Shown here piece by piece: positions 19,320-32,064 of a stretch of DNA of 64,000 nt. Position numbers and translations under genes: made by a program. Source of the DNA: Saprospirales bacterium (GTDB lineage Bacteria; Bacteroidota; Bacteroidia; Chitinophagales; JADIYW01). The notes under the pieces are model-generated. The model saw only the letters and a program-made list of their open reading frames with translations, was not told the DNA's origin and searched no databases. The stretch lies in contig JADJSS010000004.1 of assembly GCA_016711605.1 (NCBI GenBank), positions 194,320-258,319 of the forward strand, written 5' to 3'. Every line of letters starts with the position of its first letter. Positions within the stretch are counted from its first letter, which is position 1.

Positions 19320-20854
19320 ATGTTAGTAAAAACGTTTGGAAGTGCCGTATTTGGCGTAGATGCAACCACCATCACTGTTGAAGTAAATGTTTGCACAGGC
19401 AAAGATTATTTTTTAGTTGGATTACCAGATTCAGCAGTTAAAGAAAGCTGGAGCCGTGTAGAAAGTGCATTACGTATCAATAAATATCAAATGCCGCGCA
19501 TCAAAATTATCATAAATCTTTCACCAGCAGATATTCGCAAAGAAGGTTCTGCATACGATTTGCCAATTGCCATTGGTATTCTGGCTGCGTCCGAACAACT
19601 GTTTACTGAAAAATTAGATAAGTATATAATTATGGGTGAGCTTTCGTTAGATGGAATTTTACAACCCATAAAAGGTGCGTTGCCAATAGCCATCCAGGCA
19701 AAAAAAGAAGGATTTGATGGTTTTATTTTACCAAAACAAAACGCTAGAGAAGCAGCTATAGTTAGTGGTTTAAATGTATATGGTGTTGAAACATTGGATG
19801 AAGTTGTTGATTTTCTTTCTGATAAAATTAATATTGAACCAATCGTTGTAAATACACGTTCTGAATTTTATTCAAATGCAGAAAATGAATTGTTTGATTT
19901 TTCGGATGTGAAAGGACAAGAAAATATAAAACGTGCGTTGGAAATTGCAGCTGCTGGCGGACACAATGTTATTTTAATTGGTCCACCTGGTGCAGGAAAA
20001 ACAATGTTGGCTAAGCGAATGCCAACAATTTTGCCACCACTTTCGTTGCAAGAAGCATTAGAAACTACTAAAATACATTCAGTTGCAGGCAAGCTAAAAA
20101 AAGAAGCATCATTGTTGTATCAGCGACCATTTCGTTCGCCACATCATACTGTTTCTGATGTTGCTTTAGTTGGTGGTGGTGGACATCCGCAACCTGGTGA
20201 AATTTCATTAGCACACAATGGTGTTTTGTTTTTAGATGAATTGCCTGAATTTAAACGAACCGTTTTAGAAGTGATGCGCCAGCCAATGGAAGAACGCAAA
20301 GTCAATATTTCACGAGCACGATATTCTATCGATTATCCAGCAAATTTTATGTTGGTTGCCAGTATGAATCCATGTCCATGTGGTTATTTTAATCATCCTG
20401 AAAAACAATGTGTTTGTGGGCCAGGTGTGGTACAAAAATATTTAGCTAAAATATCTGGTCCATTATTAGACAGAATTGATTTACATGTTGAAGTAACACC
20501 AGTCAATATTTTAGAATTATCATCTAAACGCATTTCAGAAAAAAGTAATGAAATTAGAAAACGTGTTGTTGCTGCACGAACGATTCAAGCTGATAGATTT
20601 AATGAATCAGAAATACATTGCAACGCACAAATGAGTACCAAACAAACGCGCGATACTTGTGCGTTAGATGAAAATTGTCAGCAATTACTAAATACTGCTA
20701 TGAAACGATTAGGTTTATCTGCGCGTGCTTACGAACGAATATTCGAGTAGCAAGAACCATTGCAGATTTAGATAAATCAACAAACATAAAAACTGAACAT
20801 ATTGCTGAAGCTATACAATTCAGAAGTTTAGATCGAGAAAGCTGGAGTGCTTGA
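19320..20854 (+). CDS. comM: YifB/ComM family Mg-chelatase-like AAA+ ATPase (one frameshift near 20745)
   Basis: Lon-like N-domain, Walker [19 protein letters not shown]; C-terminal [33 protein letters not shown] lies in another frame. Confidence 0.9.
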
Positions 20855-20911
20855 GTAAATAATAAAAATTATTATTTAGTTGCATAATTAATTATTTATA
20901 TTTAATTTTGC

Positions 20912-20926
20912 GTGTAAATAATACAC
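20912..20926 (+). promoter_or_regulatory. candidate operator palindrome upstream of the NrtR-like gene
   Basis: GTGTA-N5-TACAC located 19 nt upstream of the ATG at 20945. Confidence 0.25.
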
Positions 20927-20944
20927 ACAAATAATTTATAAAAA

Positions 20945-21617
20945 ATGCAAGTAGCAGTTGATATAGTAATTTTTGGATATGATGGTCAAGATGTAAAAAT
21001 CATGTTGGTGAACGTAAAGGCGAACCATACCATGATAAATATGCTTTGCCTGGTGGTTTGGTTCGTGATACTGAAACTTGCGAATCCTGTGCAAGAAGAA
21101 CTTTGTCAGAAAAACTGGCTATTGATAATTTATACATAGAACAGCTAGGTTCTTTTGATGCTGTAAATCGAGATCCACGTGAACGTATTATTTCTGTTGC
21201 TTATTTTTCTATTATACGACAAGATGCATTGCAAACTATTTTAGGTCGTGGTGTGAGTGATGTCATTTGGGAAAACATGTTTGATATTAAGAAAATCGCA
21301 TTTGACCATAATGAAATTATACATGAAGCTATTAAGCGTGTTCAAGGTAAATTAGCGTATGAACCTATTGCATTTGAGTTACTAAATAAAAATTTGCATT
21401 ATCAGAAGTACAGAAAATTTATGAAACTTTTTATAATCAGGAAATAGATAAACGAAATTTTAGAAAGAAAATATTAGCACTGAATATCTTAAAAATATCA
21501 GGAAATATTGATAGAGCAGGTCGAACACCTTTTATGTATTCAATAAACAAACAGGAATTAAATAAAATTAAAAACCATCAACAATTGATAGAATTAACCA
21601 ACTTATGGAAAAAATAA
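20945..21617 (+). CDS. nrtR: NrtR-like regulator: Nudix domain plus C-terminal winged-helix-like domain (two frameshifts, near 21005 and 21400)
   Basis: Degenerate Nudix box GGLVRDTETCESCARRTLSEKLAI; about 80 aa C-terminal extension (EVQKIYETFYNQEIDKRNFRKKILALNILK); position directly ahead of prs and nadV as in described NrtR regulons. Confidence 0.6.
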
Positions 21618-22438
21618 AAACAATTAATTTATTTGAATTATCAGATGAGTTTATTATCAGCAAATTTGCTGGCGGCGAATGTCATGTTAAATTTCTACAA
21701 AAAATAGAAGATGAATTTGTAAGAATTAATACACGTTTAAATTCTTCTGATGATGTGATGGTTTTATGTTTAACTGTAGATGCTTTACGCAGAATGAATG
21801 TTAAGTATATTGAAGTATTTATTCCATACATTCCTTATGCACGACAAGATAGAGTGATGGTGAAAGGTGAACCATTGTCTATTAAAGTATTTGCCAATAT
21901 TATTAATAGTTTTCAATTAAATAAAGTTATCGTTTTTGATGCACATAGCGATGTTTCTGTTGCATTAATAGATAGATGTGAAAATATGACTAACTATGAA
22001 ATGGTGAACCATATTATAAAAAGCGAATTAAAATATAACGAATTCGTATTGGTGTCGCCAGATATTGGTGCTTATAAAAAGATAGAAAAATTAGGTAAGT
22101 ATACAGGTTGTAAAAATGCATTAGCAGTAGGTATGAAAGTTAGAAATTTAGATACTGGCGATATAATAAAAAGTGAAGTAATAACACACGATGAAGATCA
22201 AGATAAACCACATATTATTGTAGATGATATTTGCGATGGAGGAAGAACTTTTATTGAGATTGCAGCAATCTTAAAACAAAAAAATATTACCAATCTATCA
22301 CTTATTATTTCACATGGTATTTTTAGCCATCATGCAATAGAAAACTTATACGATGCAGGATATAAAAATATCTTCAGTAGCAACTCAATAACAGACAGAA
22401 TAGATACAAACTTTTTTAAACAGATAAATATTTTTTAA
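21605..22438 (+). CDS. prs: short ribose-phosphate pyrophosphokinase-like protein (Prs family; possibly ADPR-directed)
   Basis: 277 aa; VFDAHSD and PRPP-loop IIVDDICDGGRT motifs; start overlaps the end of the NrtR-like gene. Confidence 0.7.
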   Translation: MEKIKTINLFELSDEFIISKFAGGECHVKFLQKIEDEFVRINTRLNSSDDVMVLCLTVDALRRMNVKYIEVFIPYIPYARQDRVMVKGEPLSIKVFANIINSFQLNKVIVFDAHSDVSVALIDRCENMTNYEMVNHIIKSELKYNEFVLVSPDIGAYKKIEKLGKYTGCKNALAVGMKVRNLDTGDIIKSEVITHDEDQDKPHIIVDDICDGGRTFIEIAAILKQKNITNLSLIISHGIFSHHAIENLYDAGYKNIFSSNSITDRIDTNFFKQINIF

Positions 22439-22987
22439 ATGACAACATATAATTTAGATTGGTTGATAAAGAAATGTCAGTCAAAAGAAAATATAAAATA
22501 TATAGCATTCTGGGGACACCAACCCAGTAAGGATGGTAAACTTACTAAAACTTGTTTTAGCCAATGGTGGTATGCTTCATTTGTGGTGGATGAGGTTGAA
22601 TATAAAACAGCTGAACACTGGATGATGGCAGAGAAAGCAAGATTGTTTGATGATAGTAAAATTATAGATAAAATTGTAAATGCTAAAACACCAGCAGAAG
22701 CTAAGAAACTAGGCAGGTTAGTGAATAATTTTGATGCTGCAAAATGGGATTTACATAAGTTTGAAATTGTTGTGAATGGTAACTATCATAAATTCAAACA
22801 GAATAATAATATCAAGAAGATTTTATTGGAAACAAAAGATAATGTTATAGTTGAAGCAAGTCCAGTTGATAAGATTTGGGGAATTGGATTGTCACCAGAA
22901 CATCCACAGGTTAATTATCCTTGGAAATGGAAAGGCGAGAATTTATTAGGCTTCGCTTTAATGGAAGTAAGAGATTTGTTAAAATAA
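22439..22987 (+). CDS. NADAR (YbiA/DUF1768) family protein
   Basis: FWGH...FSQWW, YKTAEHWMMAEKARLF, AKKLGR, EASPVDKIWGIGL motifs; ATG directly abuts the prs stop. Confidence 0.8.
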   Translation: MTTYNLDWLIKKCQSKENIKYIAFWGHQPSKDGKLTKTCFSQWWYASFVVDEVEYKTAEHWMMAEKARLFDDSKIIDKIVNAKTPAEAKKLGRLVNNFDAAKWDLHKFEIVVNGNYHKFKQNNNIKKILLETKDNVIVEASPVDKIWGIGLSPEHPQVNYPWKWKGENLLGFALMEVRDLLK

Positions 22988-22990
22988 AAA

Positions 22991-23030
22991 CGTTGCTTCT
23001 TTGCGTCCTTTGCGTGAAATAAAATTTAAT
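22991..23030 (+). repeat. CTTTGCG-type intergenic cassette, copy 1
   Basis: cgttgCTTCTTTGCGTCCTTTGCGTGAAATAAAATTTAATAA followed by ATGAAAA. Confidence 0.7.
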
Positions 23031-23032
23031 AA

Positions 23033-23443
23033 ATGAAAACAACATTATACAGACCAGTTGGATTAAAAGAGATGGAATTAATTGTTGCATCTGGTTGGAG
23101 AAAATTTCCACTTAGATTAGAATGGCAACCAATATTTTATCCAGTATTAAACCAACAATATGCAGAACAAATTGCGTTAGATTGGAACACTAAAGATGAA
23201 TTTTCTGGTTACTGTGGCATAGTTACTGCATTTGACATAAGTGATGAATATCTTAAGCAATATGAAATTCAAAATGTAGGTGGTGCAGTACATAATGAAC
23301 TTTGGATACCATCAGAAAAATTAGAAGAATTCAATCAAAATATTATTGACAAAATCAGAATGGTAAATGCATATTTTGGTGAAGGTTTCAAACCATCAAT
23401 AAATACTGAATTGATGAATGAGTTGCAAAAATATCAACTATAA
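23033..23443 (+). CDS. conserved hypothetical protein embedded in the ADP-ribose/NAD island
   Basis: 136-aa ORF (LYRPVGLKEMELI...FPLRLEWQPIFYPVLN...DWNTKD...NELWIP); no family name recognised. Confidence 0.6.
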   Translation: MKTTLYRPVGLKEMELIVASGWRKFPLRLEWQPIFYPVLNQQYAEQIALDWNTKDEFSGYCGIVTAFDISDEYLKQYEIQNVGGAVHNELWIPSEKLEEFNQNIIDKIRMVNAYFGEGFKPSINTELMNELQKYQL

Positions 23444-23500
23444 CCTTTGCGCACTTTGCATCTTTGCGTTCCGAAATTTCAGAATTGCGTAAAATAAACA
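23444..23500 (+). repeat. CTTTGCG-type intergenic cassette, copy 2
   Basis: AACCTTTGCGCACTTTGCATCTTTGCGTTCCGAAATTTCAG..., followed by ATGAAAA at 23510. Confidence 0.7.
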
Positions 23501-23509
23501 CAAAACAAA

Positions 23510-24025
23510 ATGAAAATAGAAATAATACAAGCAGATATCACAACCGTACAAGTGGATGCCATTGTGAATGCAGCAAATACGTCTTTGCTTGGTGGCGGCG
23601 GTGTTGATGGCGCAATTCATCGAAAAGGCGGTAAGGTTATATTAGATGAATGTATGACTATCAGAGATAGACAAGGTAATTGCAAAACAGGAAATGCAGT
23701 GATAACTACAGCTGGAAATTTACCTGCAAAATATGTTATTCATACTGTTGGGCCAGTTTGGAATGTTGGTAATAATAAAGAAGAGCAGTTATTAGAAAAT
23801 TGTTATATAAATTCTTTAAAGTTAGCTGTTGAAAATAATGTAAAAACAATTGCATTTCCCAATATCAGCACGGGAATTTACCACTTTCCCAAAAAAAGAG
23901 CAGCTGCTATTGCATTCCAAACTATTCAGAATTTTCCCAACAAAGATTATTTTGATAAAATAGTATTTGTATGTTTTGATGATGAAAATTTTCAGTTGTA
24001 TAAAAATTATCAAACCAATCAATAA
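23510..24025 (+). CDS. Macro domain protein (ADP-ribose-1''-phosphatase / O-acetyl-ADP-ribose deacetylase type)
   Basis: [25 protein letters not shown] and [12 protein letters not shown] motifs. Confidence 0.9.
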
Positions 24026-24030
24026 GATAA

Positions 24031-24884
24031 AACAAGCTTTTAGGTTTAGCAATCGGCGATGCATTAGGAGTTCCTGTTGAATTCTACTCAAGGGAACAAC
24101 TAGAAAATCGACCTATTAAAGATATGATAGGATATGGTAGTTGGAATCAACCACCAGGTACTTGGTCAGATGATAGTTCACTTACTTTTTGTACCGCTGA
24201 AAGCTTGTTGGATGGATATGATGCAGAAAAAATGTTGACCTTATTTGTAAGATGGTATAAAGAAGGTTATTGGGGCGCACATCATAAATTATTTGATATT
24301 GGACAAACTACTCGATTATCTATAGCCAGATTTATAAAAAATGGATTTAGTAATATGAATGGTGAATTTGATGTGGACTCCAATGGCAATGGTTCTTTGA
24401 TGCGTATACTGCCAATGGCATTCTATCTAACAAAAATACAGGATATAGATACAAGATATAATATCATTAAAGAAGTATCATCTTTAACGCATGCGCATTT
24501 TCGAAGTGTTTTATCTTGTTTTATTTATGTTGAATTTGCTATTCATTTAATAAATGGAAATAAACCACAAGATGCATATAATTCAATGCAAAAAACAGTG
24601 AATGATTTTGTTGCAAAAATGGAATTTAATCAAAAAGAAGTGGAGCTTTTTGATCGAATTTTAAAAATGAATATTGCAATTGTTGATGTTGATTTTATTC
24701 GCTCATCTGGATATGTATTGTCAACATTAGAAGCAAGTTTGTGGTGTGTATTAAAATCAACAACTTATGTAGAATCGACTCTAAAAGCAGTAAATCTTGG
24801 TGGCGATACAGATACACTGGACCGTAAGGTGGTATTGCGCAACTATGGTATTGATGATATCCAGATAGATGGTTGAAAAAATAA
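24031..24884 (+). pseudogene. ADP-ribosylglycohydrolase (DraG/ARH family), no start codon for the conserved N-terminus and several 3' frameshifts
   Basis: LLGLAIGDALGVPVEF and WSDDSSLT motifs lie upstream of the first ATG (24124). The C-terminal GGDTDT...GIDDIP-DRWLKK can only be read by switching frames about 4 times between 24815 and 24870. Confidence 0.8.
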
Positions 24885-24890
24885 AATAAC

Positions 24891-25444
24891 ATGAATGAAC
24901 AACATAAAAAAAGTATCAGCAAATTTTTAAGCTTGATACTGCGACACAGTCCACAAACGATTCAGCTACAACTCGATGAAAATGGCTGGGTAAACACAGA
25001 TGAATTAATTTCTAAATGTGCTAAACATAAACATGTCTTTACTTTTAAAGAGTTGGAAGAAGTTGTTGCAACAAACGATAAACAACGTTTCATCTTCAAT
25101 GAAGATAAAACAAAGATAAGAGCCAATCAAGGTCATTCAATTGCTATTGATTTAGTATTGCAACCACAAACACCACCTGATTATTTATATCATGGCACTG
25201 TTTCGAAATTTCTGAATGATATAAAGAAAGATGGTTTGTTGAAGATGAGTCGCCAGCACGTGCATTTAAGTTCAGATAAAGAAACAGCTATAAAAGTGGG
25301 CAGCAGAAGAGGTGTGCCTGTTATTCTTACAGTAAAATCTGTAAAGATGTATCAAGATGGTTACTCATTCTATCTTCAGAAAATGGTGTTTGGTTAACCG
25401 ATCACGTACCAGCAAATTATATCGAATTTAAAATTAAAAGATGA
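24891..25444 (+). CDS. kptA: RNA 2'-phosphotransferase Tpt1/KptA (one frameshift near 25375)
   Basis: KFLSLILRHSP, GWV, NQGHS, LYHGT, HVHLS motifs; the C-terminus SENGVWLTDHVPANYIEF lies in another frame; TGA overlaps the next ATG (ATGA at 25441). Confidence 0.85.
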
Positions 25445-26174
25445 ACACAACTTATGTTATTGGTGATATACATGGTGCTTTAAAAGCGTTGATACAAGTA
25501 TTGAATAAAGTACAACCAACGAATGAAGATACCTTTATTTTTTAGGTGATTATGTAGATGGCTGGTCTGAATCAGCACAAGTAATAGACTATTTGATTGA
25601 ATTTAATAAACATCACCAATGCGTATTCGTTAAAGGGAACCATGATGTTTGGACAATGGATTGGCTGCAAGGAAAATCAGTAGATCCAATTTGGCTGAAA
25701 CATGGCGGTATGGAAACAATTGATAGTTATAAAGGTTTGGGTGATGAAAGAAAAGCTCAACATCTGGATTTCTATCAAAATCTGCAGAATTATTTTATCG
25801 ATGACAAAAACAGATTATTTATTCATGCAGGATTTTCTTCTATGCACGGACCAGCTTCTGAATTCTATATGACCAATTATACTTGGGATAGAACACTTTG
25901 GGAAATGGCATTAACGTTGGATAATCGCATTCAAAAAGATTCTGTCCTATATCCAAATAGATTGAAGTTATACCATGAAATTTATATAGGTCATACACCA
26001 ACGATTAATTATAAAGTTGATGTTCCAATGAATGGTTGTAATGTGTGGAATATAGACACAGGTGCAGCATTTACGGGCAAACTCAGCATCATGAATATAG
26101 ATACCAAACAATTTTTTCAAAGCGATATTATTAAAGAATTATATCCAAATGAAGTTGGTAGAAATAAAAGATAA
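25441..26174 (+). CDS. calcineurin-like metallophosphoesterase (one frameshift in the T-run at 25531-25536)
   Basis: VIGDIHG, (F)LGDYVDGW, VKGNHD, GHT motifs; adding one T to the T-run restores TFIFLGDYVDG. Confidence 0.8.
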
Positions 26175-26186
26175 AATACTTTAAAA

Positions 26187-26240
26187 ACTTTGCGCCTTAG
26201 CTTCTTTGCGCTCTTTGCGTGAAATTAAAATTTAAAAATG
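26187..26240 (+). repeat. CTTTGCG-type intergenic cassette, copy 3, followed by a dead copy of the nadV start
   Basis: ACTTTGCGCCTTAGCTTCTTTGCGCTCTTTGCGTGAAATTAAAATTTAAAA, then ATGAAAATTAATCCATACTAA (compare nadV ATGAAAATCAATCCATTCTTA). Confidence 0.7.
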
Positions 26241-26300
26241 AAAATTAATCCATACTAAATTAAGTATAAAAATAGCAGACAAAAAATGAATCAATAAAAG

Positions 26301-26345
26301 CAGCGCCTTTGCTTCTTAGCGTTCTTAGCGTTAAATCAAAATTCA
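26301..26345 (+). repeat. CTTTGCG/CTTAGCG-type intergenic cassette, copy 4
   Basis: GCGCCTTTGCTTCTTAGCGTTCTTAGCGTTAAATCAAAATTC upstream of nadV. Confidence 0.7.
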
Positions 26346-26366
26346 ATCAAAATCAAATAAAAAAAA

Positions 26367-27817
26367 ATGAAAATCAATCCATTCTTATTAACCGACTTTT
26401 ATAAAGTTGGGCATCCATTTCAGTATCCTGAAAAAACAACATTAGTGTATTCAAATCTAACTGCCAGAAAAAGCAGATTAGTAAATGTTAATGAAATGGT
26501 GTTCTTTGGTTTGCAATATTTTATGAAAGAATATCTATTAGAATATTTCAATGAATCCTTTTTTCAACAACCTAAAGAAAAAGTAATAAATGAATACAAG
26601 CGAAGAATTAGTTCAGCATTAGGTGGCGATTTACCAACTTACATTCATATTGAAAAATTACACGATTTAGGTTATTTGCCAATAGAAATTAAAGCATTGC
26701 CAGAAGGTAGTAAAGTTCCAATGCGTGTTCCGTGTTTAACCATCGTAAATACATTACCAGATTTTTATTGGTTAACCAATTTTCTAGAATCATTATTATC
26801 TGCTGTTATTTGGCAACCTTGTACTTCTGCAACTATTGCGCATGAATATCGTAAACTACTAGATAAATATGCTATAGAGACAGGTATGCCATTAGATTTT
26901 GTACAATGGCAAGGACACGATTTTAGCTTTCGTGGCATGAGTTCTTTAGAGTCAGCTATCTTATCTGGTATGGGACACCTACTGTCTTTTTCTGGTACAG
27001 ATACCATACCAGCCATTGATGCATTAGAATATTATTATCATGCAAATTCAGATAAAGAATTAATTGGTGGAAGTGTGCCAGCAACCGAACACAGCGTTAT
27101 GTGTAGCGGTGCAAAAGACGGCGAATTAGAAACCTTTAAAAGATTGATTACAGAAGTGTATCCAAATGGCATTGTAAGTATTGTTTCTGATACTTGGGAT
27201 TTATGGAAAGTATGTACAGAATATTTGCCTCAATTAAAACAAGATATTTTGGCAAGAGATGGCAAAGTCGTGATACGACCAGATAGTGGCGATCCTGTTT
27301 TAATTATTTGTGGTAATCCAAATGGTAAAACAGGAGCAGAGCGTAAAGGCTTAGTCGAGTTATTATGGGATGTATTTGGTGGAACGATTACAGATAAAGG
27401 GTATAAATTGTTAGATAGTCATATTGGTGCTATTTATGGTGATAGCATAAATATTGACAGAGCAACGCGTATTTGTGAAAATTTAAAAACGAAGGGTTTT
27501 GCTTCGCAAGTGGTATTTGGAATTGGTAGTTATACCTATCAATACAACACACGTGATACCTTTGGTATGGCAATGAAAGCTACTTATGTAGAGATAGATG
27601 GTGAAGCAAGAGAAATATTTAAAAGTCCAATTACTGATGATGGTACAAAGGTTTCTGCAACTGGATTGTTATCTGTAAAAAAGAGAATAATAAATTTGTG
27701 TTGCAAGATAAAGTAAGCTGGAATGAAGAAAAAAATAGCGATTTAAAAACAGTTTTCTTAAATGGAAAAATTATTAAAGAGTTTACTTTACAAGAAATTA
27801 GAGAAAATTTGATTTAA
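26367..27817 (+). CDS. nadV: nicotinamide phosphoribosyltransferase-like protein (NadV/NAMPT family; one frameshift near 27690)
   Basis: NAMPT-type pattern (TDFYK, FGLQY, GHDFSFRGM, IRPDSGDP, GDS...GIGS); C-terminal FVLQDKVSWNEEKNSDLKTVFLNGK in another frame. Confidence 0.85.
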
Positions 27818-27890
27818 TGTAATCAACACACGTTGAGTATTTACTATTTCATAAAAAATGTAAAGCATTAAATTTGCTAAAATACTAAGC

Positions 27891-29029
27891 ATGATTTCAG
27901 ATTTTTTGCAGCCAGTTGATCAACGTATCATTAATGATTATTACATTGCCAATCCATATATTTCAGATTATATTCATTTATATCACGAAAAAAATCATTA
28001 GAAAATTATACTATTGCCATTTTAGGTGTGGAAGATTATCGTGGTTACATTGCCAATAAAGGAACCGAAAATGCAGCAAATGAAGTTCGCAAACAACTCT
28101 ATCAGTTTTCGGCTTTTACGAATGGAATGCAATTGCTCGATTTAGGAAACATTAAAGCAGGTGATACCTATGTAGATACTTTGGTAGCTGTCGTTGAAAC
28201 CTTGCACGAGCTTTTTAAAAACAACATTATTACAATTGTAATTGGTGGCGATGCTGCTTTAGCTTCGCAATTCAAAGCGTATGATATTTTTGAAAACGAA
28301 ATCACTGTGGCACATATTGCATCCAAAGTTGTTTGGGAAAACAGCGATGTTGATATTCACAAAACGTATTTGAAAGATTTTTTCTTAAGTACAAATTTAA
28401 AAAAATACAATTTAGTTGCGTATCAATCTTATTTTCTACATGAAAAACAATTGTCGTTTTTAAGTAGTAAAGAACATGATGTATTGCGTGTTGGAAAAAT
28501 TCGCGAACATATTTTTGAAGCAGAACCATTATTGCGTGAAGCTGCGATGGTTACATTTAATATCAACGCTATTCGTTATTCTGATGCACCAGCACAACTC
28601 GAACCTTCACCAAATGGTTTGTTTGGTGATGAAGCATGTGGTTTAGCGCGTTTTGCTGGCATGAGTGATTTGTTGATGAGCATTGGTTTTTACGATTATA
28701 ATCCAGCATTAGATAAAAGCGATGTGACTGCAAAACAACTTGCACAAATGGTTTGGTATTTTGTGGAAGGCGTGAGCTTGCGCAGAAATGACTATCCAAT
28801 TGTTGACGAAAAAGATTTTAATATGTTTATTGTTCAGATTGAAGACGCGGAAAATGATTTTATCTTTTTAAAAAGCAAAAAAAGCGATCGTTGGTGGATG
28901 AAAATTATGTATGATAAAAATGGTAAATCCATTCATAAATTAATTCCATGTACGTATAAAGATTATTTAGCTGCTATCAACAATGAAATTCCAGAACGCT
29001 GGATGCGCGAATGGATGCGTTTGAGTTAA
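27891..29029 (+). CDS. arginase/formiminoglutamase-fold protein with substituted metal ligands (one frameshift in the A-run near 27985)
   Basis: IGGDAAL where the family has GGDHS, VAHIAS where it has DAHxD, FNINAI where it has SxDxD; the N-terminal 32 codons (from ATG 27891) are in another frame. Confidence 0.55.
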
Positions 29030-29164
29030 ACAAACTTTTTCAACTTTTATATTAAGATTATTTTAATGCATATCGTTAAGTTAATTAGTAGTTAATTAAA
29101 TGGTTTCTGTTAAACATAGTACGATATTTGTACGCTATATAATTGTTGCATTGTAAAATTATCT

Positions 29165-32064
29165 ATGATTAGACTTGTCATTTCTGTATTTCTGTATTTC
29201 TTTTGTTCTTCGTTTTCTATTGCTCAAAATTTTACCATTTCTGGTAAAATATTAGATTCAAAAGATAACGCACCTTTAATCGGTGTAAATGTTTTACTTA
29301 CAAAAGAAAATGACTCTGTTTTTCAAAAAGGTGCAAGTACCGATTTAGAAGGTAATTTTTCAATTGAAAATGTAGAAACTGGTAATTATAAGTTGAATAT
29401 TAGCTATGTAAGTTTTAAATCTTTCGACAAATCTATTTTAGTTAACGCGAATCTAGATTTGAAAACAATTACATTGGTAGAAGATAGTAAATTATTGAAA
29501 GAAGTAATAGTAGAAGAAAAACAGATTCGTGTACAACAACTTGGTGATACATCACAATTTAATGCAAACGCATTTAAAACCAATAAAGATGCAACTACAG
29601 AAGATTTATTGACAAAAATGCCAGGCGTTACTTCTGAAAATGGAACCGTAAAAGTAAATGGTGAAGAAGTAAAAAGAGTTTTAGTTGATGGTAGACCATT
29701 TTTGGCGATGATCCACGAACTGCAGTGCAAAATTTACCTGCTGATATCATAGATAAAGTTCAAGTGTTCGATAAGATGAGCGATCAGTCTGCATTTACTG
29801 GTTTTGACGATGGAAACTCTCAAAAAACTATAAATATTATTACAAAAATGGATTGAATAATTCAAAATTCGGAAGAGTTTTTGCTGGTTACGGTGGAAAA
29901 AATAACAGATATAATATTGGCGGAAATTATAATTCTTTTAAAGGTGATAAACGTTTTTCTGTTTTAGCTATGAGTAATAATATTAAACAACAAAATTTTA
30001 ATATTCAAGATTTGGTTGGTGCTACCAACACAGGAAATACTGGTGGTTCAGGTAATAGTGGTCGCGGTGGACCAAATGGAATTGGAAGAAATAATCCAGC
30101 AAATAATTTTTTAGTTGGTCAACAAAATGGTATTGCTACAACCACAGCTTTAGGTTTAAATTATGCTGATAAAATTGGTAAACAAAGGAAAGTTACGTTA
30201 ACTGGTTCGTACTTTTTTAATGGTACAAAAAATGTAAATGAAAGTTCAGCTATTCGTAATTATATTTCATCCAACGATAGTAATTTGGTGTATAACGAAA
30301 ATAAAAACACTACCAGTAAAAATTTCAATAATCGTGTAAACCTTAGAATTGAATATGCGATTGATTCATCGAATTTATTAACGTTTACGCCAAGTTTCAC
30401 ATCACAAAATTACAATTCAACATCTATTTTAGATGCGGCAAATTCAAAAAATAATACCGCAATAATTAACTCAACCAATAATACTCAAACGTCAAAACAA
30501 GTAGGTTTTAATTTTTCAAATGATATTTTATATCAACATAAATTTGCAAAGAAAGGCAGAACGATTTCATTTAATTTAAACACTTCTGGAAATTTTAAAA
30601 ATACGAATGGTACTTTATTTACTTACAATCAATTTGAAACAGATTCTACTATAACTGTTGATTCTATTGATCAAAAATCTACCTTAAAAACTAAAAAGTT
30701 ATACGGTTGGCGGAAATATAATGTACACAGAACCTATTAAAAAATTTGGTCAACTTTCTATTAATTATTCACCATCTTATACCAATTCAACATCACAAAA
30801 AAATACGAATAATTTTGATGTTACTTCACAAGATTATTCAAGACAAGACATTGCATTAAGCAATCAATTCAACAATAAATACATTACCAACAAACTTGGA
30901 ATTTCGTATCGATATAACAATAAAAAAATAAACTGGACAATTGGTTTAGTTGGTCAAGATGCTTTATTACGCAGCGAACAAGTGTCACCTAATCAAATTT
31001 CTGTCAATAAAAATTTCTTATCATTATTGCCAAATTCAGAATTAAATGTCAAGTTTTCTAAAACAGAAAATTTGCGTGTTACTTACAGAACATCAACCAA
31101 TCCACCAACTGTTACACAATTGCAAAATGTAATTGATAATAGTAATTCATTGATATTAACTTCAGGAAATCCTGATTTAAAACAAAATTTTCAACAAAAT
31201 ATTGGTTTACGATATAGTAAAACAAATACAAAAAAAGCAACCAATTTATTTGTGTTTGCAAATGCAACAAACACGATAAATTATATTGCTAATTCAACCA
31301 CTATTTTTGTCCGTGATACAATAATTAATAATATTGCTGCAAAAGCAGGAGCACAATTTATTCAACCAATAAATATAAATGGATATTGGAATACTCGAAC
31401 ATTTATAACGTATGGATTTTCAATCACCAAATTAAAAAGCAACATGAATGTGAATGGCGGTTTTGTTTATACACGCACACCAACGCTAATTAATGATGCG
31501 CGAAACAATGCAAATTCTTACGCGTTAAATGCAGGATTTTCTTTAAGCAGCAACATCAGCACAAAGATTGATTTTACGGTTTCGTATAACGCAAATTATA
31601 CAATTGTTCGAAATACATTACAAACTAAAAACAATAATAATTACTTTAATCACACAGCATCAGCTAAGTTTAATTATCAATTCTGGAAAGGATTTGTTTT
31701 TAACACATCTGTGAGTAATACTTTAAATGCTGGTGGTTCGAGCTCTTTCAACACAAGTTACTGGTTGTTGAATGCATCGTTAGCATATAAGTTTTTGAAA
31801 GACGAAAGTTTAGAAGTGAAGTTTAGTGCGAATGATATTTTAAATCAAAATAGAAATATCACGAGAAATGTTACAGATACGTATACAGAAGATACGCGTT
31901 CAACTGCATTGCAACGATATTTCTTAGGAACGATTACTTACACATTTAAAAAAGTAGGTGCGAAGTCTGAAAACCCAAATGAGAAACCAAAAGATTTTAT
32001 GATGATGCCACCACCACCAACTGGTGCTGCTGGACCACCAATGATGCCACCACCTGGAAATTAA
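29165..32064 (+). pseudogene. TonB-dependent-receptor-like outer membrane beta-barrel protein (3 frameshifts: near 29700, 29845, 30695)
   Basis: Signal peptide, CarboxypepD_reg-like N-domain (GKILDSKDNAPLIGVNV), plug-like segment (LLTKMPGVT...VLVDGRPF(F)GDDP), long beta-rich Asn/Thr-rich body ending in aromatic residues, then a Pro/Met-rich tail. Confidence 0.7.

What the first reader, a model, noticed from the sequence alone, without database searches (positions are those of the whole stretch)
20912..27817. NrtR-headed island combining three ADP-ribose eraser families with Tpt1 and an NAD-rebuilding pair
Seen: nine same-strand genes, with overlapping or abutting stop/start codons at three junctions (21605-21617, 22436-22441, 25441-25444). 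In order they are a Nudix plus wHTH-like regulator, a short Prs-like enzyme, NADAR/YbiA, an unknown 136-aa ORF, Macro, ADP-ribosylglycohydrolase, Tpt1/KptA, a calcineurin-like phosphoesterase and NadV/NAMPT-like. Established: Tpt1 consumes NAD and yields nicotinamide plus ADP-ribose 1'',2''-cyclic phosphate. Macro domains remove ADPR-1''-phosphate, O-acetyl-ADPR or mono-ADP-ribose. DraG-type ARHs and NADAR proteins reverse ADP-ribosylation of proteins or nucleic-acid bases. Nudix ADPR pyrophosphatases give AMP plus ribose-5-P. Prs makes PRPP, and NadV joins PRPP to nicotinamide. NrtR repressors are relieved by ADP-ribose. Inference: together the genes form a near-closed loop. ADP-ribose marks and Tpt1 products are stripped to free ADPR and nicotinamide, which are funnelled back toward NAD, and the operon is switched on by ADPR itself. 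That would act as a repair or counter-measure module against NAD-consuming or ADP-ribosylating toxins, immune effectors or RNA damage. The individual families are known. The combination of three erasers, Tpt1 and recycling under one ADPR sensor is what deserves attention.
Basis: partly seen in the sequence, partly recalled or inferred. Interest (0 to 1): 0.8.

Follow-up and report, generated by a model that had tools for sequence, protein, structure and literature searches.

The report
ADP-ribose-switched NAD-rebuilding operon with variable cargo
This is a bacterial chromosomal version of the phage NAD-rebuilding pathway NARP1, probably switched on by ADP-ribose, carrying a changeable set of enzymes that free ADP-ribose from modified molecules. 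It points to what this pathway does in bacteria, but the copy in this window is riddled with frameshifts.

Summary
All nine domain calls hold by HMM, but only after frameshift repair. In the window NrtR, ARH, Tpt1, the metallophosphoesterase and the NAMPT-like gene are interrupted, mostly by 1-nt homopolymer deletions. Relatives about 97.5% identical carry the operon intact. There Macro and ARH are one fused 484-aa protein, and a DUF4291 gene missing from the window follows it.

The recycling chemistry needs revising. The "short Prs" belongs to the phage Adps clade (ADP-ribose pyrophosphokinase). The "NadV" is a Namat: it has the exact GSYTYQYNTRD adenine-clamp motif and scores 643 bits to the SPbetaL1 Namat structure against 263 to true NAMPT. 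ADP-ribose plus nicotinamide are therefore probably rejoined directly (NARP1), not via PRPP and NMN. NrtR's Nudix box is degenerate, so it is a sensor. Two operator-like sites are present.

Among 80 Bacteroidota species, nrtR sits directly upstream of adps in 68, and 70 show adps...namat. Between these two genes lies a variable cargo: Tpt1, phosphoesterase, NADAR, Macro, ARH, DUF4291, PARG and others. Cargo occurs only with clamp-bearing Namat. The unknown 136-aa ORF models confidently as an ADP-ribosyltransferase fold.

Verdict: a real, NrtR-linked, cargo-extended NARP1. It is a new variant of a known kind.

The parts
20909..20929 (.). Variant NrtR operator-like palindrome TGCGTGTAAATAATACACACA (core GT-N7-AC), 16 nt upstream of the nrtR ATG. 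It abuts a Bacteroidota-type -7-like TAATTTTG.
   Evidence: It is identical in L006 and L007. It is the only GTGTA-N5-TACAC match in the 64 kb. It scores below 12 bits with the family PWM because of symmetric changes at positions 2, 3 and 20.
20945..21617 (+). nrtR: degenerate Nudix sensor domain plus NrtR winged-helix domain. Interrupted in the window by two 1-nt deletions (about 21013 and 21393).
   Evidence: Pfam PF00293 3e-12 and PF21906 1.4e-17. NCBIfam TransRepNtr 115 bits, below its cutoff of 400. Indels. Intact 223-aa orthologue in L003.
21605..22438 (+). adps-like gene (the 'short Prs'), 277 aa, intact. Predicted ADP-ribose pyrophosphokinase making ADPR-PP.
   Evidence: phrog_619 256 bits against TIGR01251 157 bits, with all Prs equivalog cutoffs missed. 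40-42% identity to phage Prs-like genes that sit next to Namat. PP loop DDICDGGRTFI identical to phages GAP31 and Boevelstad. Clusters with phage Adps in an NJ tree.
22439..22987 (+). NADAR (YbiA-type) gene, 182 aa, intact.
   Evidence: PF08719 1.7e-54. TIGR02464 173 bits, above its cutoff of 73.7. PADLOC candidate PDC-M42C 143 bits.
22995..23039 (+). 45-nt repeated cassette leader with two CTTTGCG motifs, copy 1 of 3.
   Evidence: the repeat finder family D1. CTTTGCG enrichment.
23033..23443 (+). 136-aa ORF, intact. Small protein with an ADP-ribosyltransferase (ART) fold, from an unnamed and highly conserved family.
   Evidence: No Pfam, NCBIfam or PHROG hit. 3457 homologues. AF2 pLDDT 93.7. 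Foldseek top hits are Tpt1/KptA, pertussis S1, RhsP2 and TreTu toxins and CC0527, with weak E-values of 2.5e-3 and above. Phage ART-like hits. Invariant R7, S58 and E89.
23484..23504 (.). Canonical NrtR operator-like site ATTGCGTAAAATAAACACAAA, 5 nt before the macro-ARH ATG.
   Evidence: PWM score 23.6 bits, the only site of at least 12 bits in the 64-kb window. Conserved in L003, L006 and L007.
23510..24025 (+). Macro domain part (YmdB/MacroD type) of what is a Macro-ARH fusion gene in relatives. It ends in the window at a stop created by a 5-nt deletion at 24020.
   Evidence: PF01661 2e-49. NF001664 225.6 bits, above its cutoff of 200. Fusion of 484 aa in L003, L004, L005 and L007. Indels.
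24031..24884 (+). ADP-ribosylglycohydrolase part of the fusion gene. It lacks its own start, has clustered deletions at 24816-24861, and has lost about 24 C-terminal codons.
   Evidence: Indels and breakpoint.
24876..24878 (.). Deletion junction. About 807 bp of L003 are absent here (ARH 3' end, a spacer and the 220-aa DUF4291 gene). About 130 bp are absent relative to L007, which lacks DUF4291 naturally.
   Evidence: DUF4291 Pfam 4e-63 in L003.
24891..25444 (+). tpt1/kptA (RNA 2'-phosphotransferase), with 1-nt deletions at 25377 and 25434.
   Evidence: PF01885 3e-55. NF002014 270.9 bits, above its cutoff of 239. Indels. Synonymous divergence from L003 is 0.32 against 0.01-0.11 in the other genes compared.
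25441..26174 (+). Metallophosphoesterase of the lambda-phosphatase / Pnkp-phosphatase type, with a 1-nt deletion at 25544.
   Evidence: PF00149 2e-17. phrog_246 7e-45. PDB 1G5B 5e-8 and 4J6O 1e-7. Follows Tpt1 within 150 nt in 15 census loci.
26200..26355 (+). Spacer holding leader copies 2 (26200-26244) and 3 (26311-26355). A 21-nt remnant of the namat 5' end (ATGAAAATTAATCCATACTAA, 26238-26258) follows copy 2.
   Evidence: family D1. The remnant was read: 18 of 21 nt match 26367-26387.
26367..27817 (+). namat-like gene (the 'NadV'), 483 aa after repair of a 1-nt deletion at 27677. Predicted nicotinamide ADP-ribose transferase (ADPR-PP + Nam -> NAD+).
   Evidence: PF04095 and PF18127. Motif GSYTYQYNTRD matches the Namat signature GSX-phi-X-phi-X-phi-TRD. 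643 bits to 9W5X/9W5W, the SPbetaL1 Namat, against 263 to NAMPT. 60.8% identity to SPbetaL1.

Best explanation
The locus is a chromosomal, NrtR-controlled, cargo-extended NARP1 operon.

Proposed mechanism:
1. NrtR has a catalytically degenerate Nudix sensor and a winged helix. It binds 21-bp GT-N7-AC palindromes in front of nrtR-adps and in front of macro-ARH, and is released by free ADP-ribose. Release by ADPR is inferred from characterised NrtRs.
2. The Adps-like enzyme pyrophosphorylates ADP-ribose with ATP to give ADPR-PP. The Namat-like enzyme joins ADPR-PP to nicotinamide to give NAD+ directly. ADP-ribose would then be both the inducer and the substrate.
3. The genes placed between adps and namat widen the input. 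The Macro-ARH fusion and NADAR strip ADP-ribose from proteins, nucleic-acid bases or O-acetyl/phospho-ADPR.
4. Tpt1 yields ADPR-1'',2''-cyclic phosphate. The lambda/Pnkp-type phosphoesterase, together with Macro, is proposed to convert this to ADPR. The same compound was reported as ADPR-cP among the products of the Adps reaction.
5. The 136-aa ART-fold protein, and DUF4291 in relatives, have unknown substrates.

What is shown: domain identities, Adps/Namat clade membership, the clamp motif, the operator motif, synteny, and the restriction of cargo to clamp-bearing loci.

What is inferred: every enzymatic step, ADPR induction, and the physiological trigger (NADase or ART attack versus housekeeping).

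The window's own copy is either mis-sequenced or very recently broken.
For: - Namat. The signature motif is present and the protein scores 643 bits to the solved SPbetaL1 Namat against 263 to NAMPT.
- Adps. It scores best to phage phrog_619, is 40-42% identical to phage Adps next to Namat, has an identical PP loop, and is short at the C-terminus as described for Adps. It clusters with phage Adps away from two Prs.
- NrtR. Domains are confirmed. A consensus TTTG[CT]GTAAAwTTTAC[GA]CAAA was built from 126 sites, usually in tandem about 52 bp apart, upstream of nrtR or between nrtR and adps. The window has two sites, both conserved in relatives. ADPR releases S. oneidensis NrtR from a prs-nadV operator (PMC2330246).
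- Census. nrtR lies directly upstream in 68 of 80 loci, and adps...namat is seen in 70 of 80. All seven scored cargo families lie on the operon's strand. Frequencies are Tpt1 35, MPE 32, NADAR 31, Macro 19, ARH 18, DUF4291 17 and the ART-like ORF 11. Further cargo includes PARG and Macro_2.
- Cargo and clamp. 47 of 57 clamp-bearing loci have cargo or an insert over 600 nt. None of the 9 clamp-less loci do.
- Phage precedents for accessory genes inside NARP1 that make ADPR: Adpp Macro and RyDEP.
- Bacterial NARP1 is catalytically active but its role is open.
- pN/pS of 0.03-0.39 in both broken and intact genes shows that constraint persisted.
Against: - No enzyme here was assayed.
- Identity to the best-validated Adps (SPbetaL1) is only 28-33%, and its PP loop differs (DDLSSFGGTF). 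The tree uses only two Prs outgroups.
- Namat retains some PRPP activity in vitro (heading of section 21). Characterised bacterial NadV enzymes from nrtR-prs-nadV operons have been treated as NAMPT.
- The Macro here is of the YmdB/MacroD type, not the Poa1p-like Adpp.
- ART-fold proteins (Tpt1, the 136-aa ORF, DUF4291) consume NAD. That sits oddly in a pure salvage operon.
- The upstream operator in the window is a variant that scores poorly with the family PWM.
- As sequenced, five genes are broken.
Confidence: 0.6

Rival explanations
1. A canonical Prs makes PRPP, partly from ribose-5-P released by a Nudix ADPR pyrophosphatase. A canonical NadV/NAMPT makes NMN, which enzymes elsewhere in the genome convert to NAD.
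For: The Prs-like protein passes the broad TIGR01251 subfamily cutoff (157 against 113). The NAMPT-like protein passes NF006629. nrtR-prs-nadV operons were originally read this way (PMC2330246). Nine census loci pair an Adps-like gene with a clamp-less NAMPT-like gene.
Against: All Prs equivalog cutoffs are missed and the phage Adps family scores far higher. The Namat clamp motif is exact, and the protein is much closer to a solved Namat than to NAMPT. NrtR's Nudix box lacks two of the three REUxEE glutamates. No NMNAT is in the operon. ADPR-releasing cargo occurs only beside clamp-bearing enzymes. The 2008 authors themselves found the dedicated second prs unexplained.
Confidence: 0.12
2. Primarily a conflict system. 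It would be an inducible counter-measure that removes ADP-ribose marks placed by phage or competitor ART toxins, or repairs NADase damage. This follows the Nudix-HTH/WYL-regulated ARG-centric systems predicted by Iyer et al. 2022, with NAD rebuilding as a secondary benefit.
For: The operon has a repressor, a conserved core and a variable, shuffled cargo of erasers. These are hallmarks listed in PMC9503650 section 3.8. PARG, which protects against the RNA-ART toxin RhsP2, is among the cargo. Single loci carry RES, SIR2 or NERD genes. NADAR hits a PADLOC candidate. Tpt1 divergence suggests cassette exchange.
Against: The conserved core here is adps + namat + nrtR, not ARG (ARH is in only 18 of 70 loci). 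24 of 70 loci carry none of the seven scored cargo families. ART-fold genes are present, whereas the Iyer systems were defined by the absence of ARTs. No known defence system is matched. Flanks are housekeeping genes. This rival overlaps with the best explanation rather than excluding it.
Confidence: 0.3
3. An RNA-repair operon. The Pnkp-like phosphoesterase heals 2',3'-cyclic phosphate ends, Tpt1 removes the resulting 2'-phosphate using NAD, and the other enzymes clear ADPR by-products.
For: Tpt1 followed by the phosphoesterase is the most frequent adjacent pair (15 loci). The phosphoesterase resembles the C. thermocellum Pnkp phosphatase domain (4J6O) and TIGR04075. One locus carries a HAD_SAK_2 RNA-repair domain. 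The role of KptA in RNA repair is summarised in PMC9503650.
Against: No RNA ligase or kinase was found in any cargo. Tpt1 and the phosphoesterase are absent from about half of the bracketed loci, while adps and namat persist. This rival does not explain NrtR, ARH, PARG or the clamp association.
Confidence: 0.1
4. In this particular genome the operon is a decaying pseudogene cluster. The frameshifts, the broken fusion and the deletion would be real, and nothing functions here.
For: At least ten coding lesions lie in five genes. They include a 5-nt non-homopolymer deletion, a clustered patch at 24816-24861 and loss of about 807 bp. L006 is also fragmentary.
Against: 21 of 24 indels against L003 are deletions, 17 of them single bases and mostly in A/T homopolymers. 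They also hit intergenic DNA and unrelated flanking genes. That is the pattern of systematic sequencing error. pN/pS stays at 0.08-0.09 in NrtR, Macro-ARH, Tpt1 and Namat (0.39 in the phosphoesterase). Three independent assemblies of close relatives are intact.
Confidence: 0.15

Closest known systems
[quoted passage not shown] 2024, bioRxiv 10.1101/2024.02.11.579819). Chromosomal bacterial NARP1 was shown to be active for Paenibacillus foliorum (Lan et al. 2026, PMC12774641).
   Same: The same two enzyme families in the same order. The Namat clamp motif is exact, and identity to SPbetaL1 Namat is 60.8%. The PP loop is of the Adps type and the protein is truncated at the C-terminus.
   Different: The locus is chromosomal in Bacteroidota and headed by an NrtR repressor. 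The two genes are separated by about 3.9 kb of accessory genes here, and by 24 nt to 9.3 kb in relatives. The published bacterial example has adjacent genes and no stated regulator or role.
NARP1-AP (Adps-Adpp Macro-Namat; bioRxiv 10.64898/2026.01.28.702374) and RyDEP within NARP1 operons (bioRxiv 10.64898/2026.05.28.727677).
   Same: An accessory gene inserted in the NARP1 operon converts a non-canonical NAD product (ADPR-1''-P or cADPR isomers) into ADPR for NARP1.
   Different: Those are phage counter-defence operons with a single accessory gene. Here there are up to seven of the scored cargo families per locus, plus further families in some loci, drawn from about 20 families. The Macro here is of the YmdB/MacroD type fused to ARH. 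Poa1p-like Macro_2 occurs in only 3 census loci.
NrtR regulon operon nrtR-prs-nadV (Rodionov et al. 2008, PMC2330246; listed for Cytophaga hutchinsonii, Shewanella, Acinetobacter and Chromobacterium).
   Same: The gene order is nrtR, then a prs paralogue, then nadV. Operators are tandem 21-bp palindromes with a GT-N7-AC core, and ADPR is the effector.
   Different: That operon was interpreted as PRPP supply for NMN synthesis, and the dedicated prs paralogue was left unexplained. No cargo genes were described. Here the pair is of the Adps/Namat type and brackets ADPR-processing genes.
ARG-centric systems regulated by Nudix-HTH or WYL factors, predicted to counter viral ADP-ribosylation (Iyer et al. 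2022, PMC9503650 section 3.8).
   Same: An ADPR-sensing Nudix-HTH repressor, ARH, calcineurin-like phosphatase, optional Macro and NADAR, and variable accretion of modules.
   Different: Those systems were described in actinobacteria, planctomycetes and proteobacteria. ARG is their core, they lack NAD-rebuilding genes, and they were defined by the absence of ARTs. Here the core is adps/namat, ARH is optional, and ART-fold genes are present.

Membership tests
Namat (nicotinamide ADP-ribose transferase) | Nampt-like catalytic core | tested here: met
   PF18127 + PF04095. NF006629 595.6 bits, above its cutoff of 405.
Namat (nicotinamide ADP-ribose transferase) | Selectivity-clamp helix motif GSX-phi1-X-phi2-X-phi3-TRD with aromatic X (PMC12774641, section 23) | tested here: met
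   GSYTYQYNTRD, with phi1 = T, phi2 = Q and phi3 = N, all the preferred residues. Clamp-less relatives read GVGGILRNHSRD.
Namat (nicotinamide ADP-ribose transferase) | Closer to validated Namat than to Nampt | tested here: met
   643 bits to 9W5X/9W5W (SPbetaL1 Namat) against 263 bits to mammalian NAMPT. 60.8% identity to SPbetaL1.
Namat (nicotinamide ADP-ribose transferase) | Stacking residue in the beta1-beta2 selectivity loop (SCL) | not tested
   The loop is variable, and no structure-based alignment was made.
Namat (nicotinamide ADP-ribose transferase) | ADPR-PP + nicotinamide -> NAD+ activity | not testable with these tools
   Needs an enzyme assay.
Adps (ADP-ribose pyrophosphokinase) | PRPS-like fold | tested here: met
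   PF13793, PF14572. TIGR01251 157 bits. PDB Prs hits around 1e-20.
Adps (ADP-ribose pyrophosphokinase) | Loss of the C-terminal alpha11-alpha12 module (PMC13586617, section 21) | tested here: met
   277 aa. The alignment to Prs proteins of 317-326 aa ends at about residue 293 of the Prs. Homologues are 273-277 aa. This rests on length and alignment only.
Adps (ADP-ribose pyrophosphokinase) | Remodelled, family-conserved PP loop | tested here: inconclusive
   DDICDGGRTFI is identical to phage GAP31 and Boevelstad Adps-type proteins and differs from Prs DD(M/I)(I/V)DT(G/A)GT. However, SPbetaL1 Adps reads DDLSSFGGTF, and the solved enzyme's loop (Cys215-Ser220) was not aligned here.
Adps (ADP-ribose pyrophosphokinase) | Membership of the phage Adps clade and linkage to namat | tested here: met
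   phrog_619 256 bits. The NJ tree groups it with four phage Adps away from two Prs (a crude tree). namat lies downstream in 70 of 80 loci.
Adps (ADP-ribose pyrophosphokinase) | ADPR + ATP -> ADPR-PP activity, with no PRPP synthesis | not testable with these tools
   Needs an enzyme assay.
NrtR | N-terminal Nudix domain plus C-terminal NrtR winged helix | tested here: met
   PF00293 and PF21906.
NrtR | NCBIfam equivalog NF050029 | tested here: not met
   115.5 bits against a cutoff of 400. It is the best hit but a distant subfamily.
NrtR | 21-bp palindromic operators with a GT-N7-AC core near regulated genes | tested here: met
   126 sites across relatives. Window sites at 20909-20929 (variant) and 23484-23504 (23.6 bits).
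NrtR | DNA binding relieved by ADP-ribose | not testable with these tools
   Shown only for the S. oneidensis and Synechocystis proteins.
Tpt1/KptA | Equivalog model score | tested here: met
Macro (O-acetyl-ADPR deacetylase / MacroD-YmdB type) | Equivalog model score | tested here: met
   NF001664 225.6 bits, above its cutoff of 200.
NARP1-AP Adpp (Poa1p-like Macro phosphatase) | Poa1p-like Macro (PF14519-type) between adps and namat | tested here: not met
   The window's Macro is PF01661 of the YmdB type. PF14519 cargo was seen in only 3 other loci.
ARH subfamilies DraG / Tri1 | Equivalog model score | tested here: not met
   Tri1 168 bits against 490, and DraG 121 against 337. Only the general PF03747 is met.
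Iyer 2022 ARG-centric counter-ADP-ribosylation system | ARG as the conserved core, and no ART in the neighbourhood | tested here: not met
   ARH is in 18 of 70 loci. Tpt1, the 136-aa ART fold and DUF4291 are present.
ADP-ribosyltransferase fold (136-aa ORF) | ART-like three-dimensional fold | tested here: met
   pLDDT 93.7. Every Foldseek PDB hit at E below 0.3 is an ART-fold protein, but E-values are only 2.5e-3 and above and TM is at most 0.53.
ADP-ribosyltransferase fold (136-aa ORF) | Catalytic triad (R-S-E or H-Y-E) in strands 1, 2 and 5 | tested here: inconclusive
   Invariant R7 (strand 1), S58 (before strand 2) and E89 (a short strand) are placed suitably. No residue-level superposition was possible.

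The most novel reading that the evidence does not exclude
The interval between adps and namat may be a dedicated, recombining cargo slot under one ADPR-sensing repressor. In it, Bacteroidota would collect enzymes that turn every class of NAD-derived product into free ADP-ribose for one-step NAD+ resynthesis. Those classes include protein-, DNA- and RNA-linked ADPR, poly-ADPR, ADPR-1''-P and ADPR cyclic phosphate.

On this reading NARP1 originated as a bacterial substrate-induced salvage and repair system that phages later borrowed. The uncharacterised cargo would mark NAD-derived metabolites or immune signals not yet known. That cargo includes the 136-aa ART-fold family, DUF4291, Nuc_deoxyri_tr2, a PurA-like enzyme, a 2OG oxygenase and several families with no Pfam match.
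Probability: 0.35. Interest if true: 0.8.

Novelty: new variant of a known kind. Interest (0 to 1): 0.62.

Why it matters
Lan et al. 2026 call the physiological role of chromosomal bacterial NARP1 an open question. This locus and its roughly 80 relatives supply a concrete, testable answer. The pathway sits under an ADP-ribose-responsive repressor and is physically interleaved with enzymes that liberate ADP-ribose, so inducer, feeders and rebuilders form one unit.

It also explains a puzzle from 2008: why NrtR regulons carry a dedicated second prs next to nadV.

The variable cargo is a ready-made list of candidate enzymes acting on ADP-ribose derivatives. It includes a large unnamed ART-fold family (3457 members) and DUF4291. 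In the library searched, the only paper naming both NrtR and NARP1 does not link them mechanistically.

Tried and rejected
- Rfam gathering scan and tRNA scan of the whole window found nothing.
- The sigma-70 promoter and terminator scan of 20600-28200 found no more than shuffles and no + strand terminator inside the operon. It is uninformative for Bacteroidota promoters.
- Sequence searches for the 136-aa ORF gave nothing meaningful. These covered Pfam, NCBIfam and PHROGs, a lenient Pfam scan of 30 members, a profile search against PDB sequences, and PADLOC. Only fold comparison was informative.
- I tested whether the CTTTGCG spacer motif is a general cassette signal. It is enriched in the window (14 against 6.1 expected, 7 of them in three operon spacers). 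It is not enriched inside the adps-namat interval of the 80 other species. It is therefore lineage-specific and was not used in the mechanism.
- A prophage or mobile-element origin was considered and rejected. Flanks are housekeeping genes and no phage genes are nearby. No known defence system is matched.
- De Souza & Aravind 2012 on NADAR contexts could not be retrieved. Overlap with that paper is unchecked.
- The PDB sequence copy held no Adps structure, so the PP-loop comparison with the solved enzyme could not be made.

Full report
**What is in the window**

After frameshift repair, Pfam gives these results:
- Nudix + NrtR_WHD
- Pribosyltran_N
- NADAR (1.7e-54)
- nothing for the 136-aa ORF
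- Macro (2e-49)
- ADP_ribosyl_GH (4e-62)
- PTS_2-RNA (3e-55)
- Metallophos (2e-17)
- NAMPT_N + NAPRTase (1.4e-43)

NCBIfam agrees. It passes curated cutoffs for Tpt1, a MacroD/YmdB-type Macro, NADAR and the NAMPT-like protein.

As sequenced, however, five genes are not open. NrtR lies in three frames. ARH has no start and has a patch of lesions. Tpt1, the phosphoesterase and the NAMPT-like gene each carry a frameshift.

**Frameshifts, fusion and a missing gene**

A protein search with the Prs-like ORF found a 99%-identical protein. Three independent contigs carry it (L003, L004, L005), and all hold an intact operon. Its gene order is:
- NrtR (223 aa)
- Prs-like (277 aa)
- NADAR (182 aa)
- 136-aa ORF
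- a single Macro-ARH fusion (484 aa)
- DUF4291 (220 aa)
- Tpt1 (182 aa)
- phosphoesterase (244 aa)
- NAMPT-like (483 aa)

The window is 97.4-97.8% identical to L003. It differs by 24 indels. Of these, 21 are deletions in the window and 17 are single-base deletions, mostly in A/T runs. They also occur in intergenic DNA and in flanking genes.

A 5-nt CAATA deletion at 24020 creates the Macro stop. About 807 bp are absent at 24877, covering the ARH C-terminus and DUF4291.

Substitutions against L003 remain strongly biased to synonymous sites in broken and intact genes alike, with pN/pS of 0.03-0.39. The frameshifts are therefore most likely sequencing errors, or else very recent. The ATGA overlap at 25441-25444 depends on one of these deletions and is not present in L003.

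Tpt1 shows synonymous divergence of 0.32, against 0.01-0.11 in the other genes compared. This sits next to the DUF4291 gap. It suggests a real cassette-level exchange rather than an assembly error at that point.

**The recycling pair is Adps/Namat, not Prs/NadV**

The NAMPT-like protein carries GSYTYQYNTRD. This is an exact instance of the Namat selectivity-clamp signature GSX-phi-X-phi-X-phi-TRD, which distinguishes ADPR-PP-using Namat from PRPP-using Nampt (PMC12774641). It scores 643 bits to 9W5X/9W5W, the SPbetaL1 Namat structures, against 263 bits to mammalian NAMPT. It is 60.8% identical to SPbetaL1 Namat.

The evidence on the Prs-like protein is as follows:
- It misses every cellular Prs equivalog cutoff.
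- It scores 256 bits to phage family phrog_619.
- It is 40-42% identical to phage proteins encoded beside Namat.
- It shares their PP loop DDICDGGRTFI, whereas Prs reads DD(M/I)(I/V)DT(G/A)GT.
- It lacks the C-terminal region whose loss is described as a signature of Adps.
- It groups with four phage Adps away from two Prs in a simple NJ tree.

Two caveats apply. Identity to SPbetaL1 Adps is only 28-33%, and that enzyme's PP loop differs.

NrtR's Nudix box reads RTLSEK where REUxEE is expected, so it is probably a sensor only. No NMN adenylyltransferase is present.

**Regulation**

Across relatives I found 126 sites that give the consensus TTTG[CT]GTAAAwTTTAC[GA]CAAA. They usually occur as tandem pairs about 52 bp apart. 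They lie upstream of nrtR in the closest clade, or in the nrtR-adps spacer in Flavobacterium, Pedobacter and others. This is the 21-bp GT-N7-AC architecture reported for NrtR, including tandem sites at the S. oneidensis prs-nadV operator, which ADPR relieves.

The window has two sites:
- A variant site at 20909-20929, identical in L006 and L007.
- A canonical site at 23484-23504, five bases before the macro-ARH ATG. It is the only hit of at least 12 bits in the 64 kb and is conserved in L003, L006 and L007.

**Census**

An alignment of Adps-like proteins recovered at least 556 species-representative hits. I examined the best 80 loci with 10-kb flanks. The results were:
- nrtR lies directly upstream on the same strand in 68 of 80 loci.
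- namat lies downstream in 70 of 80 loci.
- The interval between adps and namat ranges from 24 nt to 9.3 kb.
- 24 loci carry none of the seven window-type cargo families in that interval, and 46 carry one to seven. All of these cargo genes lie on the operon's strand.
- Cargo frequencies are Tpt1 35, phosphoesterase 32, NADAR 31, Macro 19, ARH 18, DUF4291 17 and the 136-aa ORF 11.
- Order varies, but some blocks recur: Tpt1 then phosphoesterase, NADAR then 136-aa ORF then Macro, and DUF4291 then Tpt1.

Unassigned ORFs in the interval add further families:
- Nuc_deoxyri_tr2 (17 loci)
- a divergent Macro (13 loci)
- microbial PARG (11 loci)
- a second ARH type (8 loci)
- a PurA-like enzyme (8 loci)
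- a 2OG oxygenase (6 loci)
- SLOG/LOG and Macro_2 (3 loci each)
- single SIR2, SIR2_2-TPR, RES, HAD_SAK_2 and NERD genes
- several families with no Pfam match

Cargo, or an insert over 600 nt, is present in 47 of 57 loci whose full-length Namat has the clamp. It is present in none of the 9 loci whose partner lacks the clamp (GVGGILRNHSRD). This association is what one expects if the cargo feeds ADP-ribose to Adps/Namat.

The census has limits. It used single-query tblastn, only the 80 hits closest to the query, and one genome per species.

**The unknown ORF**

The 136-aa protein belongs to a family of 3457 proteins with about 60-70% identity across genera. It matches no profile library. Its AlphaFold model is confident, with pLDDT 93.7.

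Every PDB fold hit at E below 0.3 is an ADP-ribosyltransferase-fold protein: Tpt1/KptA, pertussis S1, RhsP2 and TreTu toxins, and CC0527. The E-values are weak (2.5e-3 and above) and TM is at most 0.53. Viral hits include annotated ARTs and a 2'-phosphotransferase. Invariant R7, S58 and E89 sit where an R-S-E triad would be.

DUF4291, which the window has lost, has independently been proposed as an atypical ART. Nudix, Macro, ARH and Tpt1 genes were reported as its neighbours (PMC12522546).

**Comparison with what is known**

- nrtR-prs-nadV operons were listed in 2008, including for Cytophaga. The dedicated prs paralogue was left unexplained.
- NARP1 was defined in phages in 2024, with the remark that some bacteria carry it outside prophages.
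- A bacterial NARP1 was shown to be active in 2026, with its role left open.
- Phage NARP1 operons can hold one accessory gene that makes ADPR: Adpp Macro or RyDEP.
- Iyer et al. 2022 predicted Nudix-HTH-regulated, ARG-centred counter-ADP-ribosylation systems with phosphatases, Macro and NADAR in other phyla.
- In the library searched, the only paper naming both NrtR and NARP1 does not link them mechanistically.

The present locus combines these threads. I rate it a new variant of a known kind.

**Mechanism and confidence**

My best explanation (confidence 0.6) is an ADPR-derepressed, cargo-extended NARP1. Erasers and phosphoesterases would funnel ADPR conjugates and phospho-ADPR species to free ADPR, which Adps and Namat rejoin to nicotinamide.

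Shown here are the domain identities, the clade and motif membership, the operator motif, the synteny and the cargo-clamp association.

Inferred are all catalytic steps, induction by ADPR, the role of the phosphoesterase on ADPR cyclic phosphate, and the trigger. The trigger could be housekeeping NAD turnover or attack by NADases or ARTs. Whether the window's own copy works depends on whether its indels are real.

Noticed in passing
window 19320-20854, 27891-29029, 29165-32064 (and 20907-31604 generally): Genes flanking the operon are also broken by single-base homopolymer deletions relative to L003. They are a ComM/YifB-like gene, an arginase-family gene, and a TonB-dependent receptor-like gene split into three ORFs. 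The problem looks genome-wide or assembly-wide, at about one indel per 450 bp.
   Followed up: partly
window 22995-23039, 26200-26244, 26311-26355; also 23445-23468: A 45-nt leader with two CTTTGCG motifs (GCTTCTTTGCGnnCTTTGCGTGAAAT...) is repeated before several cassettes. 7 of the 14 CTTTGCG matches in the 64 kb fall in three operon spacers. The left half resembles an NrtR half-site. The motif is not enriched in the equivalent interval of 80 other species, so it is lineage-specific.
   Followed up: partly
window 26238-26258: A 21-nt remnant of the namat 5' end (ATGAAAATTAATCCATACTAA, 18 of 21 nt identical to 26367-26387) follows leader copy 2, 129 nt upstream of the real namat start. It looks like a scar of a cassette insertion or deletion.
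   Followed up: no
window 24891-25444 vs L003 4809-5357: Tpt1 has synonymous divergence of 0.32 from L003, against 0.01-0.11 in the other genes compared. It lies directly beside the point where DUF4291 is absent. This suggests a mosaic made by recombination of cassettes.
   Followed up: partly
window 20857-20877: An AT-rich palindrome AAATAATAAAAATTATTATTT (9 of 10 arm positions complementary) lies 52 bp (start to start) upstream of the nrtR-proximal operator. That is the spacing at which relatives have a second NrtR site. It lacks the GT/AC core.
   Followed up: no
L021, L022, L024, L026, L027, L031, L041, L073 (Pedobacter and relatives), L084 (Sericytochromatia): Nine loci pair an Adps-type gene (PP loop DDICDGG[AG]TF) with a NAMPT-like gene that lacks the aromatic clamp (GVGGILRNHSRD). 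None has cargo between the two genes. It is unclear whether these make NAD from ADPR-PP or NMN from PRPP.
   Followed up: partly
L058, L071, L077, L081, L082 and other Flavobacterium loci, between adps and the first window-type cargo gene: Three extra families occur in 8 loci each in the adps-namat interval: a 286-aa protein with no Pfam match (vWA-like by eye), a 111-aa coiled-coil protein, and a PurA-like adenylosuccinate-synthetase homologue. They appear to form one sub-block of unknown role.
   Followed up: no
L075 13753-14598; L046 11301-12935; L079 6054-6743; L042 10774-12381: Single loci carry an NAD-consuming or effector-like gene inside the NAD-rebuilding operon: a RES domain, SIR2_2-TPR, SIR2 and a NERD nuclease.
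   Followed up: no
L001 (Cronobacter phage GAP31) 4759-5292: A 177-aa hypothetical protein sits between the phage Adps and Namat genes. A metallophosphoesterase and an RNA ligase are encoded within 3 kb. The phage operon therefore also has uncharacterised accessory genes.
   Followed up: no
L006 and L007 vs the window and L003: Relatives with 83% Adps identity carry the operon in a different chromosomal context, between an ABC permease and a MauE-like gene. They lack NADAR, and L007 also lacks DUF4291. The operon or its surroundings have therefore moved within a short evolutionary distance.
   Followed up: no
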